From Escherichia coli (GTDB lineage Bacteria; Pseudomonadota; Gammaproteobacteria; Enterobacterales; Enterobacteriaceae): 64,000 nucleotides of DNA. The stretch's first letter is position 1. The number at the start of each line of letters is the position of its first letter. Below the pieces are notes generated by a model that saw only the letters and a program-made list of their open reading frames with translations, had not been told where the DNA came from and made no database searches. Location of the stretch: the NCBI RefSeq assembly GCF_003334305.1, contig NZ_QOWS01000007.1; one strand, 5' to 3'. Positions 42,378-56,910 of this stretch are shown one piece after another. A program made the translations under genes and the position numbers.

Positions 42378-43652
42378 TTAACCCAGTAACGTGCGCAAAT
42401 GCGCGGCTACGCTATCCTGCGCAACTGCCGTTTGCTCACCAGAGCGCAAATCCTTCACTACTGCTGTGCCGTTAGCCACTTCAGACTCACCCAGCACCAC
42501 AGCAACGCGGGCACCCCATTTATCAGCACGGGCAAACTGTTTCTTAAAGTTGCCGCCGCCGTGGTTGGTCATCAATTTCACGCCCTGTAATTCATCACGC
42601 AGACGCTCAGCTAATGCCATAGCCGCAGATTGTGTATCAGCACCTGAAGCCACCAGGTATATATCGACAACAGGATCGGCTTTAAATTCCGGATTAACGG
42701 CCTGTACTAACAATACAAGACGTTCGAGGCCCATCGCAAAACCGACAGCCGGTGTTGCACGACCGCCCAGTTGTTCCACAAGACCGTCATAACGACCGCC
42801 TGCACACACGGTGCCCTGGGAGCCGAGACTGTTAGTCACCCACTCGAAAACGGTACGGTTATAGTAATCCAGACCACGCACCAGACGCTGGTTTACGGTG
42901 TAAGCGATCCCCGCGCTCTCCAGCAGTTTGCACAGACCGGCAAAGTGCTCACGAGATTCCTCGTCCAGATAATCGCCTAATGCCGGAGCATCGTTGAGAA
43001 GCGCCTGCACTTCCGGATTTTTGGAATCCAGCACGCGCAGCGGGTTAGTGTACATGCGGCGTTTGCAGTCTTCGTCCAGCTTATCTTTATGCTGCTCAAG
43101 GAATGCCACCAGCGCATCGCGGTAATTGGCGCGTGCTTCCAGCGAACCGATAGAGTTCAGCTCAAGAGTTACGTGCTCGGAAATACCCAGCGCACGCCAC
43201 CAGCGGGCGGTGAGCATAATCAGTTCAGCGTCGATATCCGGACCTTGCAGACCGAAAACTTCGCAGCCCAACTGATGGAACTGACGATAACGCCCTTTCT
43301 GCGGACGCTCGTGACGGAACATCGGCCCGATATACCACAGACGCTGTTCCTGATTGTACAGAAGACCATGCTCAATGCCGGCGCGTACACAGCCCGCCGT
43401 CCCTTCAGGGCGCAGAGTCAGGCTGTCGCCATTGCGATCCTCAAAGGTGTACATCTCTTTTTCAACCACGTCGGTGACTTCACCAATCGCACGTTTGAAT
43501 AGCGGGGTCTGCTCTACAATCGGCAAGCGGATTTCACTGTAACCGTAGCTGCCGAGCACGTTTTTCAGTGTGCCTTCAATGCGCTGCCAGATGGCCGTTT
43601 CGCCAGGCAGGTAATCGTTCATGCCGCGAATGGCTTGAATGTTTTTTGCCAC
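42378..43652 (-). CDS. hisS: histidine--tRNA ligase
   Basis: 424-aa ORF recognised as HisS. Confidence 0.95.
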
Positions 43653-43659
43653 GTTTATT

Positions 43660-43755
43660 CTCTTTCTGAATATAAAAATGAACCCTCAACGCTTCCCTCA
43701 ATGTTTCGGGAGCTATGCGGGTTCAATCATACACGGGAAGCGAGGCGCTTCCCAT
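43660..43755 (-). ncRNA. sroE: probable SroE small RNA region (ispG 3' UTR / hisS leader)
   Basis: 110-nt structured spacer between ispG and hisS. From memory, SroE maps to the gcpE-hisS spacer in E. coli; boundaries are approximate and unverified. Confidence 0.35.
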
Positions 43756-43762
43756 CACGTTA

Positions 43763-44881
43763 TTATTTTTCAACCTGCTGAACGTCAATTCGACGCGCTT
43801 CGTCCAGCTGACTGGCTTTCGCACGAATGCGTGCTTCCAGCTGGTCGATCATATCGTTGTTGTCCAGACGGTCTTTGCGCACGCCATCTTCATAGAGGCC
43901 GCTTTTCTTGTTGCCGCCGGTGACGCCGAGTGTAGAAACCAGCGCCTCACCTGGGCCATTCACCACGCAGCCGATAATCGAAACGTCCATCGGAGTGATG
44001 ATATCTTCCAGGCGTTGCTCCAGCGCGTTAACCGTACCGATAACATCAAATTCCTGACGCGAACAGGTCGGGCAGGCGATGAAGTTGATCCCGCGCGAAC
44101 GGATACGCAGCGATTTCAAAATATCGAAACCGACTTTGATCTCTTCGACCGGATCGGCCGCCAGTGATACGCGCAGCGTGTCGCCGATGCCTTCAGACAG
44201 CAGCAGACCTAAACCAATGGCGGATTTTACTGCCCCGCTGCGTGCACCACCGGCTTCGGTGATCCCCAGATGCAGCGGCTGATCGATCTGTTTTGCCAGC
44301 AAACGATAAGACTCAACAGCGAGGAAGACGTCAGACGCTTTCACGCTGACTTTGAACTGATCGAAGTTCAGGCGATCGAGATGATCAACATGGCGCATGG
44401 CGGATTCCAGCAACGCCTGCGGCGTCGGTTCGCCATACTTTTCTTGCAGATCTTTTTCCAGCGATCCGGCGTTAACGCCAATACGGATCGGAATGTTTTT
44501 ATCGCGCGCACAGTCAACCACCATGCGAATACGCTCTTCATTACCGATATTGCCAGGGTTAATACGCAGACAATCGACGCCGTATTCCGCTACTTTCAGT
44601 GCAATGCGATAGTCGAAGTGGATGTCAGCCACCAGCGGCACGTTAACCTGCTGTTTGATGAGTTTGAACGCTTCTGCCGCGTCCATCGTCGGTACGGAGA
44701 CACGGACGATATCAGCGCCAACGCGTTCCAGCGCCTTGATTTGATTGACCGTTGCTTCGACGTCTGTCGTACGCGTATTGGTCATGGACTGTACGGCGAT
44801 GGGAGCACCATCGCCAATCGGCACATTCCCAACGTAAATACGTGTTGATTTTCTACGTTGAATTGGAGCCTGGTTATGCAT
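43763..44881 (-). CDS. ispG: 4-hydroxy-3-methylbut-2-enyl diphosphate synthase (flavodoxin)
   Basis: 372-aa ORF recognised as IspG/GcpE. Confidence 0.95.
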
Positions 44882-56462: not shown

Positions 56463-56606
56463 TGCTGGTCTGGTTCGCGGCCTTTCCAGCAGGTTGTATT
56501 ACCGTAGTAATGCAAGCGCGTCTCAGCGGAGACAATACTCGCCAGTAACTCTCTTTTTGTCAAGCAAAAGAGAGTTATTATTGTTCTGTTAGTGTATTAT
56601 CCACTG

Positions 56607-56910
56607 CGGCCCTTTCCGCCGTCTCGCAAGCGGGCGCTGGCTTAAGGAAAGGATGTTCCGCGACCGTTAGAGCAAGCGCGTCTCAGCGCTTGCTATCGCG
56701 GCAATATCGCCAGTGGTGCTGTCGTGATGCGGTCTTCGCATGGACCGCACAATGAAGATACGGTGCTTCTGTATCGTACTTATTGTTTCTGGTGCGCTGT
56801 TTTCCCAAGTAAATAATAACCGGAGTCTCTCCGGCGACAATTTACTGGTGGTTAACAACCTTCAGAGCAGCAAGTAAGCCCGAATGCCGCCCTTTGGGGC
56901 GGCATATTTT
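56607..56910 (+). ncRNA. ryfA: probable RyfA small RNA locus
   Basis: Structured 490-nt sseA-sseB spacer ending in a plus-strand intrinsic terminator (gccgccc-tttg-gggcggc + atatttt) at 56886..56910. From memory, ryfA lies between sseA and sseB; 5' end and strand are inferred. Confidence 0.3.

What the first reader, a model, noticed from the sequence alone, without database searches (positions are those of the whole stretch)
43653..43762. Structured ispG-hisS spacer, probable SroE sRNA
The 110-nt spacer contains a GC-rich hairpin (gggaagcgaggcgcttccc, about 43735..43753) and a direct repeat ttgaggg. From memory, a small RNA (SroE) maps to the gcpE(ispG)-hisS spacer in E. coli and is probably a processed 3'-UTR fragment.
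Basis: partly seen in the sequence, partly recalled or inferred. Interest (0 to 1): 0.25.

Follow-up and report, generated by a model that had tools for sequence, protein, structure and literature searches.

The report
Known SroE RNA overlapping hisS promoter
The ispG-hisS spacer in this E. coli window encodes the already catalogued small RNA SroE, so the finding is correct but ordinary; the same 92 bases also appear to hold the promoter of the essential hisS gene.

Summary
The observation and the interpretation both hold. The window is E. coli. ispG (43763..44881) and hisS (42378..43652) lie on the minus strand, separated by exactly the 110-nt spacer described. Rfam's sroE model (RF00371) matches 43763..43672 (-) over its full length at 114.6 bits (gathering score 51). 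The sequence differs by one base from sroE (b4761) as annotated in E. coli K-12. The GC hairpin is at 43735..43753 as stated. The 'ttgaggg' repeat exists on the RNA strand but is within chance and is not conserved.

Comparison of 80 species adds detail. The element is confined to Enterobacteriaceae. A 31-nt core is 98% conserved where neutral sites are 58% conserved. The second hairpin is always closed by GAACCC/GGGUUC and followed by a U-run, like an intrinsic terminator. The invariant TATGAT between the two hairpins sits 7 nt upstream of a published primary transcription start at 43718. So SroE overlaps the probable hisS promoter and the first 47 nt of the hisS 5' UTR.

The most likely reading is that SroE is the processed ispG 3' UTR. 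hisS transcripts that start inside it lack the terminator's 5' arm and read on into hisS. Any trans-acting function remains unproven. The element is already known and of low interest.

The parts
43672..43763 (-). SroE small RNA, 92 nt. Its 5' end is the last base of the ispG stop codon and its 3' end lies just after the U-run.
   Evidence: Rfam RF00371, 114.6 bits, full-length match. Homologous to K-12 sroE b4761 with 1 mismatch. Folds at -40.8 kcal/mol, z = -5.7.
43763..43765 (-). ispG stop codon (TAA). Its last base is SroE position 1.
   Evidence: ORF 43763..44881 (-), annotated as ispG in E. coli genomes.
43734..43754 (-). Hairpin 1: UGGGAAGCG-CCU-CGCUUCCCG.
   Evidence: 96.5% of cells paired across 22 Enterobacteriaceae, with the arms nearly invariant, the loop free to vary and one fully compensatory change (GUGAAGC/GCUUCAC).
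43726..43731 (-). TATGAT, a -10-like box (5 of 6 matches to TATAAT) in the single-stranded linker between the hairpins. Probable hisS promoter -10.
   Evidence: Invariant in all 22 aligned Enterobacteriaceae spacers. Best sigma-70-like match in each of those spacers, with a weak -35 of 3/6. Sits 7 nt upstream of the published TSS.
43718..43718 (-). Published primary transcription start (G, SroE position 46). Gives a 66-nt hisS 5' UTR (43718..43653).
   Evidence: Kim et al. 2012 (PMC3415461) Table S1: TSS at NC_000913.2 position 2638663 (-), 6 reads, 5'-triphosphate enriched. The printed -50..+1 sequence ends GTGTATGATTGAACCCG. Mapped to the window by sequence.
43679..43725 (-). Hairpin 2: a 47-nt extended hairpin closed by UGAACCC/GGGUUCA, with an inner stem GCUCCC/GGGAAGC.
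   Evidence: The closing helix is 98.6% paired across 22 taxa. The inner stem differs in each genus but always extends the same hairpin. Enterobacter species have a short canonical hairpin here.
43674..43678 (-). U5 run immediately 3' of hairpin 2. Together they look like an intrinsic terminator and mark the SroE 3' end.
   Evidence: a run of 5-8 U follows the closing helix in 20 of the 22 taxa (Superficieibacter has an interrupted AUAUUUAU tail, and the automatic extraction failed for Cedecea, whose alignment row still shows GGGTTCA followed by six T). The annotated K-12 3' end lies here.
43658..43664 (-). AAGAGAA, the Shine-Dalgarno-like region of hisS.
   Evidence: AAAGAGAAUAAAC-GUG is conserved across Enterobacteriaceae. 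Its function as a ribosome-binding site is inferred from its position.
43650..43652 (-). hisS start codon (GTG).
   Evidence: The HisS product has 71-99% identical relatives in the 80 loci retrieved.
43683..43701 (-). The two 'UUGAGGG' copies (43695..43701 and 43683..43689). Each GGG forms part of a 3' stem arm of hairpin 2.
   Evidence: Not beyond chance and not conserved.

Best explanation
The spacer encodes SroE, a known 92-nt enterobacterial small RNA. It is best understood as a compact junction between two essential genes.

(1) Transcripts coming from ispG carry hairpin 1 directly after the stop codon. They then carry a long hairpin closed by GAACCC/GGGUUC and followed by a U-run. That second hairpin acts as an intrinsic terminator or as a block to 3' exonucleases. 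Processing at or near the ispG stop codon releases the stable two-hairpin 92-nt RNA, so SroE is the processed ispG 3' UTR.

(2) The invariant TATGAT in the linker between the hairpins is the -10 box of a hisS promoter. Transcription starts at the G just after GAACCC (43718). These transcripts lack the 5' arm of the closing helix, cannot form a stem next to the U-run, and read on into hisS.

Shown here: family membership, the two-hairpin anatomy, sequence-level constraint on the core, and the terminator-like architecture across genera. Taken from the literature: the position of the primary start site, the processed 5' end, and Hfq association. Inferred: termination efficiency, terminator bypass by promoter placement, and the idea that the SroE RNA is mainly a by-product rather than a regulator.
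For: Identity: Rfam RF00371 at 114.6 bits, full length. K-12 sroE is annotated at the same place with 1 mismatch. The spacer is single-copy in 5426 of 5426 complete E. coli genomes.

Structure: z = -5.7 for the 92-mer. The two outer helices are 97.4% paired across 22 Enterobacteriaceae, against 27-51% when the partners are slid.

Terminator-like hairpin 2: in 20 of the 22 taxa one extended hairpin closed by GAACCC/GGGUUC abuts a run of 5-8 U. The inner stems are different sequences in different genera. Three Enterobacter lineages have only a short canonical hairpin plus 7-8 U.

Promoter: TATGAT is invariant and is the best sigma-70-like -10 in every Enterobacteriaceae spacer. I predicted a start about 7 nt downstream before finding that Kim et al. 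2012 list a 5'-PPP-enriched TSS exactly there.

Constraint: the 31-nt core is 98.4% identical, four-fold degenerate sites in the flanking codons are 58% identical, and the hairpin loop is 40% identical. This fits overlapping DNA-level (promoter) and RNA-level (stem) constraints.

Bypass: RNA starting at 43718 is no more structured than shuffles (z = -0.4) and has no helix next to the U-run.

Processed 5' end.

Outgroups: about 24 Yersiniaceae, Pectobacteriaceae, Morganellaceae and Budviciaceae loci have a terminator hairpin after ispG and then a near-consensus TTGAxx-N18-TATAAT about 35 nt before hisS. In several it lies between GAACCCG and CGGGTTCATTTTT. A hisS promoter nested in an ispG terminator therefore looks ancestral.

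This model also explains why transposon insertions in SroE are not tolerated in Salmonella (PMC3632133): they would cut hisS off from its promoter.
Against: The published TSS rests on only 6 reads, in a dataset that lists many low-count intragenic starts. The authors' Table S2 labels it 'upstream of the sRNA', although their printed sequence places it inside.

The candidate -35 is weak, at 3 of 6 matches, and the simple consensus scan called no promoter or terminator in the region.

The held parts of the Adams et al. 2021 Term-seq tables list 3' ends inside hisS and ispG but none at the SroE 3' end. Strong termination at the U-run is therefore not supported by that dataset, although the held files may be truncated.

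True covariation in the outer helices is thin: only 2 pairs change on both sides, because the arms are nearly invariant.

I could not read the original SroE paper (Vogel et al. 2003) or the hisS promoter papers (Eisenbeis and Parker 1982; Freedman et al. 1985).
Confidence: 0.6

Rival explanations
1. SroE is a genuine trans-acting, Hfq-associated, 3'-UTR-derived regulatory sRNA. It base-pairs with target mRNAs, perhaps through the invariant single-stranded linker GUGUAUGAUUGAA. The overlap with hisS signals would then be incidental. This rival is compatible with the best explanation rather than exclusive of it.
For: SroE is listed among 26 sRNAs associated with Hfq in E. coli after 24 h of nitrogen starvation, by RIL-seq as cited in PMC12539622. 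It has a terminator-like hairpin plus U-run at its 3' end, as Hfq-binding sRNAs typically do. Its conserved linker is unpaired. One weak in vitro interaction, with ligB mRNA, was reported in PMC6172242.
Against: Nine of ten predicted targets failed to bind in vitro, and the tenth bound only weakly. Overexpression had no biofilm, motility or fimbriae phenotype. Expression is constitutive across nutrient conditions. No (ARN)x Hfq-binding motif was found. The invariance of the linker is explained equally well by the -10 box. No validated target or phenotype turned up in the searched literature.
Confidence: 0.2
2. The element is a cis-acting sensory leader of hisS, such as a T-box-like element or an attenuator. 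It would switch between terminator and antiterminator folds in response to tRNA-His charging or to translation. This was proposed by Barquist et al. 2013.
For: The element is consistently placed 5' of the essential hisS gene and is required in transposon screens (PMC3632133). In this window CGCUUCCC could pair either with the upstream GGGAAGCG (hairpin 1) or with a second GGGAAGCG inside hairpin 2, and the second pairing would exclude the closing helix. A 10-codon ORF, MGSASLPVYD, spans hairpin 1 and stops at the UGA that overlaps the 5' arm of hairpin 2.
Against: No T-box, His-leader or other Rfam family matches the spacer even at E <= 10. The alternative pairing is not conserved: CGGAAGCG in the E. 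coli representative, GGTTAGCG in Citrobacter, and absent elsewhere. The mini-ORF has no His codons. Its two loop codons vary freely, its stop is lost in 4 of 22 taxa, one taxon has an immediate stop, and its start is ATG, CTG or TTG. It is a by-product of the invariant stem arms. The hisS transcript from the mapped TSS lacks hairpin 1 and the 5' arm altogether and shows no significant structure (z = -0.4). Enterobacter species reduce hairpin 2 to a bare terminator with no room for a sensor.
Confidence: 0.08
3. The element is a REP-type repetitive extragenic palindrome, or a chance hairpin with no specific role.
For: RepRanger flags sroE as containing a 'REP' (PMC12306157).
Against: The hairpin occurs once in the 64-kb window, even allowing 3 mismatches. 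The spacer occurs once per genome in 5426 E. coli genomes. The core is 98% conserved across genera where neutral sites are 58% conserved. The structure has z about -5.5.
Confidence: 0.02

Closest known systems
SroE RNA (Rfam RF00371; E. coli K-12 sroE, b4761)
   Same: Same locus (between ispG and hisS, same strand), same length (92 nt), same two-hairpin fold. There is a full-length model match at 114.6 bits and 91 of 92 bases are identical to K-12.
   Different: One substitution (A for G at 43714), in an internal loop of hairpin 2. Many other E. coli genomes are 100% identical to the window over the 221-base stretch that includes the spacer.
Processed 3'-UTR-derived sRNAs such as CpxQ and SroC (cut from the 3' end of an mRNA, sharing its terminator; named from general knowledge and listed with SroE in PMC8313858)
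   Same: Starts at the stop codon of the upstream gene on the same strand and ends at a hairpin plus U-run. The 5' end is reported as processed. Hfq association is reported.
   Different: No validated target or seed. Its 3' half doubles as the promoter-proximal 5' UTR of the next essential gene, and a -10 box lies within it.
Intrinsic (Rho-independent) terminators
   Same: A G/C-closed helix directly abuts a U5-8 run in 20 of 22 taxa. The Enterobacter versions are textbook-sized.
   Different: In E. coli the hairpin is 47 nt with internal loops and a 10-nt apical loop, so the consensus scanner does not call it. No Term-seq 3' end was found in the held tables.
Leader regulators of aminoacyl-tRNA synthetase genes (T-box leaders; the pheST attenuator; the thrS operator; named from general knowledge)
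   Same: A structured RNA immediately 5' of a tRNA synthetase gene, as Barquist et al. 2013 noted.
   Different: No T-box model match, no conserved alternative fold, and no His-rich leader peptide. The mapped hisS TSS lies downstream of most of the structure.

Membership tests
SroE (Rfam RF00371) | Score at or above the curated gathering threshold of the covariance model, over the full model | tested here: met
   114.6 bits against 51; model positions 1-92 of 92; E = 7e-28.
SroE (Rfam RF00371) | Location between ispG (gcpE) and hisS, on the same strand as both | tested here: met
   Rfam hits in 19 other Enterobacteriaceae species are all at this position.
SroE (Rfam RF00371) | Two-hairpin secondary structure of the family consensus | tested here: met
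   The minimum-free-energy fold reproduces both helices. The helices are 97.4% paired across 22 taxa, although mostly through invariant pairs.
SroE (Rfam RF00371) | A discrete transcript of about 90 nt in vivo | not testable with these tools
   Literature only: described as a 90-nt molecule from an early sRNA screen (PMC3632133) and detected in all conditions by RNA-seq (PMC12266141).
Processed 3'-UTR-derived sRNA | 5' end made by processing (monophosphate) rather than by transcription initiation | not testable with these tools
   Literature is consistent with processing. The end at the annotated start is seen only in the non-enriched dataset (Kim 2012 Table S2). SroE is listed as processed in PMC8313858.
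Processed 3'-UTR-derived sRNA | Hfq-dependent base pairing with defined target mRNAs | not testable with these tools
   Hfq association is reported. One weak in vitro target was found against nine negatives. No validated target exists.
Intrinsic terminator | A stable G/C-rich stem immediately followed by a U-run | tested here: inconclusive
   Present by folding in 20 of 22 taxa but not called by the consensus scan. No 3' end was found in the held Term-seq tables.
Sigma-70 promoter (hisS promoter inside sroE) | -10 and -35 hexamers at 16-18 bp spacing, with a primary TSS 6-8 nt downstream of the -10 | tested here: inconclusive
   The -10 TATGAT matches 5 of 6 and is invariant. The -35 matches only 3 of 6, and the scan threshold was not reached. 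A published 5'-PPP TSS lies 7 nt downstream, with 6 reads.
T-box leader | Match to the T-box covariance model (specifier loop and antiterminator bulge) | tested here: not met
   No T-box hit at E <= 10 over 43560..43860.
Leader-peptide attenuator | A conserved short ORF rich in the cognate codon, with conserved mutually exclusive helices | tested here: not met
   The mini-ORF has no His codons and is not conserved as a coding sequence. The alternative pairing is lineage-specific.
REP element | Many dispersed copies per genome | tested here: not met
   One copy in the window at up to 3 mismatches. One copy of the spacer per E. coli genome.

The most novel reading that the evidence does not exclude
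The sroE 'gene' may be mainly a nested promoter-in-terminator junction. The same roughly 90 bp would terminate or stabilise ispG transcripts and also launch hisS transcripts, which escape the terminator because they start one base past its 5' arm. In other Enterobacterales the hisS promoter sits inside the terminator loop instead. In the Enterobacteriaceae it would have moved to just upstream of the 5' arm, freezing 31 nt of sequence. On this reading the abundant SroE RNA, and its 'essentiality' in transposon screens, are by-products of that architecture.
Probability: 0.45. Interest if true: 0.3.

Novelty: already known. Interest (0 to 1): 0.12.

Why it matters
As a finding, it simply rediscovers a catalogued sRNA, so it adds nothing new to the genome's inventory. 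The comparative result is a modest refinement for people who study orphan sRNAs. SroE has had no function for about two decades. The data here suggest that much of its conservation, and its apparent essentiality, reflect an overlapping hisS promoter and an ispG terminator rather than a trans-acting role. If confirmed, this would caution against reading the conservation or transposon intolerance of intergenic sRNAs as evidence of RNA function. It would also give a tidy example of a terminator being bypassed through promoter placement.

Tried and rejected
(1) Attenuator switch. CGCUUCCC can pair with either of two GGGAAGCG copies, which is attractive in this window. The second copy is not conserved, even in the E. 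coli species representative or in Citrobacter.

(2) Significance of the 'ttgaggg' direct repeat. It is within chance (18% of shuffles) and not conserved.

(3) A leader peptide or upstream ORF, MGSASLPVYD. It is a by-product of the invariant stem arms.

(4) A T-box or other known riboswitch or leader. There is no Rfam match at E <= 10.

(5) A REP or other dispersed repeat. The element is single-copy.

(6) A sigma-54-like match (TGGGAAG-N4-TCGCT). I noted it by eye, but the GG-N10-GC spacing follows automatically from the palindrome. I did not pursue or test it.

(7) Literature hunts that returned nothing: Vogel 2003 and Thomason 2015 are not held. The Conway 2014 supplements are not held. The SMRT-Cappable-seq and Cappable-seq supplements have no entry for this locus. 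The Klebsiella TSS rows of Kim 2012 are truncated in the held file.

(8) My first pair count used a bracket string that was out of register. It was redone correctly.

Full report
**What is there.** The window is Escherichia coli. A 221-base stretch around the spacer occurs once in each of 5426 complete E. coli genomes, always under the ispG and hisS annotations. Both genes are on the minus strand: ispG at 43763..44881 and hisS at 42378..43652, with a GTG start. The hairpin gggaagcg-agg-cgcttccc is at 43735..43753 as stated. The 'ttgaggg' repeat is present on the minus (RNA) strand, at 43701..43695 and 43689..43683.

**Is it more than chance?** The spacer RNA folds at -42.3 kcal/mol, with z = -5.3, and none of 200 shuffles folds as well. 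The 92-nt core gives -40.8 kcal/mol and z = -5.7. The reverse strand also folds well (z = -4.8), so folding alone does not set the strand. The 7-nt direct repeat is not significant. A direct repeat of at least 7 nt occurs in 18% of dinucleotide shuffles of the spacer. The first copy is already different (TTGACGG) in the GTDB representative E. coli genome.

**Identity.** A scan of the whole window against Rfam 15 gives two hits above gathering score. One is sroE (RF00371) at 43763..43672 on the minus strand. It scores 114.6 bits against a gathering score of 51, with E = 7e-28, and covers model positions 1-92 of 92. E. coli K-12 MG1655 annotates 'ncRNA sroE, b4761, small RNA SroE' at 2640595..2640686 (-), between hisS and ispG. 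The window differs from it at a single base, A for G at 43714, in an internal loop.

**What the literature says.**
- SroE is called a 90-nt molecule from an early sRNA screen. It is required or ambiguous in transposon libraries of both Salmonella Typhi and Typhimurium. The authors suggested that it is a cis-regulatory, T-box-like leader of hisS (PMC3632133).
- Its level does not change across nutrient conditions (PMC12266141).
- Overexpression gave no biofilm, motility or fimbriae phenotype (PMC4606813).
- Of ten predicted targets tested in vitro, only ligB bound, and weakly (PMC6172242).
- It has no (ARN)x motif (PMC5575007).
- It is listed among 26 sRNAs associated with Hfq after 24 h of nitrogen starvation (PMC12539622).
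- No validated function was found.

**Comparative anatomy.** Using HisS as a spacer-independent anchor, I retrieved the locus from 80 species of Enterobacterales and Vibrionales. ispG lies directly upstream of hisS on the same strand in all 80. Spacer length ranges from 13 to 411 nt. Rfam's sroE model reaches its gathering score in 19 loci, all in Enterobacteriaceae genera: Escherichia, Citrobacter, Enterobacter, Kluyvera, Pluralibacter, Phytobacter, Mangrovibacter, Superficieibacter and others. It finds nothing in Yersiniaceae, Erwiniaceae, Pectobacteriaceae, Morganellaceae, Hafniaceae, Budviciaceae or the two Photobacterium loci scanned; the short-spacer Vibrionaceae loci were not scanned.

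In an alignment of 22 Enterobacteriaceae spacers, the two outer helices are 97.4% paired, against 27-51% when the 3' partners are slid by 1-3 columns. Only two pairs change on both sides, because the arms are almost invariant.

The constraint is on sequence, not only on pairing. Against E. coli, four-fold degenerate sites in the adjacent 200 codons of ispG and hisS average 58% identity. The 5-nt hairpin loop averages 40%. The 31-nt core (both arms of hairpin 1, the linker GTGTATGAT, and TGAACCC) averages 98.4%. The 16-mer GTGTATGATTGAACCC is exactly conserved in 14 species loci plus K-12.

**Hairpin 2 looks like a terminator.** I folded each species' sequence downstream of GUAUGAU separately. 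In 20 of the 22 taxa this gives one extended hairpin closed by GAACCC/GGGUUC that directly abuts a run of 5-8 U. The exceptions are Superficieibacter, whose tail is an interrupted AUAUUUAU, and Cedecea, where the automatic extraction stopped at an internal U-run, although its alignment row shows GGGTTCA followed by six T. The inner stem is a different sequence in each genus: GCUCCC/GGGAAGC in E. coli, GCGCCCG/CGGG..GC in Citrobacter, GAGACGCUCUGCC/GGCAGUCUC in one MAG, and so on. Three Enterobacter lineages keep only a short canonical hairpin plus 7-8 U. The simple consensus scanner does not call a terminator in E. coli, probably because the hairpin has internal loops and a 10-nt apical loop. 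The held parts of the Adams et al. 2021 Term-seq tables list 3' ends inside hisS and ispG but none at the SroE 3' end. I therefore treat termination efficiency as unknown.

**A promoter inside the sRNA.** The invariant linker contains TATGAT (43731..43726), which matches 5 of 6 positions of the -10 consensus. It is the best sigma-70-like match in every Enterobacteriaceae spacer, although the -35 is weak at 3 of 6. From this I expected a start about 7 nt downstream, at the G that follows GAACCC.

Kim et al. 2012 (PMC3415461, Table S1) list a TSS from 5'-triphosphate-enriched libraries at NC_000913.2 position 2638663 (-), with 6 reads. Its printed '-50 nt upstream + TSS' sequence is AAATAATAACGTGATGGGAAGCGCCTCGCTTCCCGTGTATGATTGAACCCG. 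That last G is SroE position 46, which is window position 43718. It gives a 66-nt hisS 5' UTR.

Their Table S2 marks sroE as 'x**' (TSS 'upstream of the sRNA') in the enriched set and as plain 'x' in the non-enriched Cho et al. set. The 'upstream' label conflicts with their own printed sequence, which places the start inside sroE. The plain 'x' in the non-enriched set is what one expects if the annotated SroE 5' end is a processed end.

RNA starting at 43718 lacks the GAACCC arm. It is no more structured than shuffles (-17.8 kcal/mol, z = -0.4) and has no helix next to the U-run.

**Outgroups support a nested arrangement.** About 24 loci from Yersinia, Serratia, Rahnella, Rouxiella, Pectobacterium, Brenneria, Dickeya, Edwardsiella, Proteus, Providencia, Photorhabdus, Xenorhabdus and Budvicia share one layout. 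They have a canonical terminator hairpin after ispG, followed by TTGAxx-N18-TATAAT with its -10 ending 31-38 nt before the hisS start. That distance is about 96-98 nt in three Yersinia loci and 51-53 nt in the Rouxiella and Dickeya loci. In several of these loci (Rahnella, Serratia plymuthica, Rouxiella and Pectobacterium) the promoter lies between GAACCCG and CGGGTTCATTTTT, the same closing helix and U-run as in E. coli. E. coli and its relatives have lost that TATAAT and instead have TATGAT just 5' of the helix.

**Mechanism I commit to.** SroE is the ispG 3' UTR. Its 5' end is made by processing at the stop codon (literature). Its 3' end lies at the hairpin-2/U-run, made either by intrinsic termination or by an exonuclease block (inferred). 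Its two stable hairpins explain why it accumulates. The same DNA carries the hisS promoter between the hairpins. Those transcripts begin one base past the 5' arm of the terminator helix and so are not terminated (inferred). This accounts for three things: the sequence-level invariance of the core, the transposon intolerance seen in Salmonella, and the lack of any trans phenotype. I put about 0.97 on 'this is SroE' and about 0.6 on the junction model as a whole.

**Rivals.**
- A genuine trans-acting Hfq sRNA is not excluded and is compatible with the above. There is no validated target and most tests were negative.
- A T-box-like or attenuator leader is unlikely. No model matches even at E <= 10. 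The tempting alternative pairing, with GGGAAGCG present twice, is lineage-specific. The 10-codon ORF across hairpin 1 has no His codons, and its variation is that of a hairpin loop rather than a peptide.
- A REP element is excluded by copy number.

**Verdict.** The element is already known and of low interest. The comparative and TSS evidence that the sRNA overlaps the hisS promoter and 5' UTR is a modest refinement. It could be tested with standard end-mapping and reporter experiments.

Noticed in passing
window 56606..56910 (+): The only other Rfam hit above gathering score in the window is ryfA RNA (RF00126), at 317.9 bits over the full model (1-296).
   Followed up: no
window 44029 (-), inside ispG: Kim et al. 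2012 list a second low-count TSS (4 reads) assigned to hisS, 377 nt upstream of its start codon and inside the ispG coding sequence. Its printed sequence maps to window 44029..44047 (-), which puts the TSS at 44029.
   Followed up: partly
L006:1313-1503, L057:1258-1503, L076:1087-1503 (ispG-hisS spacers): Some species have spacers enlarged by an inserted element that resembles the enterobacterial ERIC repeat. I recalled the ERIC consensus from memory, and it matches L076 at 84% over 74 nt. In Pseudocitrobacter (L006) the insertion sits in the loop of hairpin 1, which leaves the GGGAAG and CTTCCC arms about 100 nt apart. The Rfam sroE model then no longer scores.
   Followed up: partly
L045, L060 and L061-L081 (spacers of 13-50 nt): In Pantoea sp. 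1.19 (13 nt), Acerihabitans (24 nt) and most Vibrionaceae (23-50 nt) the ispG-hisS spacer is too short for a terminator plus promoter. hisS is presumably co-transcribed with ispG there.
   Followed up: no
L039, L040, L044, L046 (Pantoea spacers): Pantoea species have a third layout. A TATGAT box lies inside a hairpin closed by AACCUGU/ACAGGUU and followed by U7, about 35 nt before hisS. This again places a -10-like box within a terminator-like hairpin.
   Followed up: no
window 43746..43753 and 43690..43697 (-): The 8-mer GGGAAGCG occurs twice in the spacer, which happens in 4.3% of shuffles. The 3' arm of hairpin 1 could therefore pair with the second copy and exclude the closing helix of hairpin 2. 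This is specific to K-12-like E. coli sequences and is not conserved.
   Followed up: yes
Kim et al. 2012 (PMC3415461), Tables S1 and S2: Table S2 labels the sroE TSS as 'upstream of the sRNA', but the sequence and coordinates in Table S1 put it 45 nt inside sroE on the minus strand. This is probably a sign error in the handling of reverse-strand sRNAs.
   Followed up: yes
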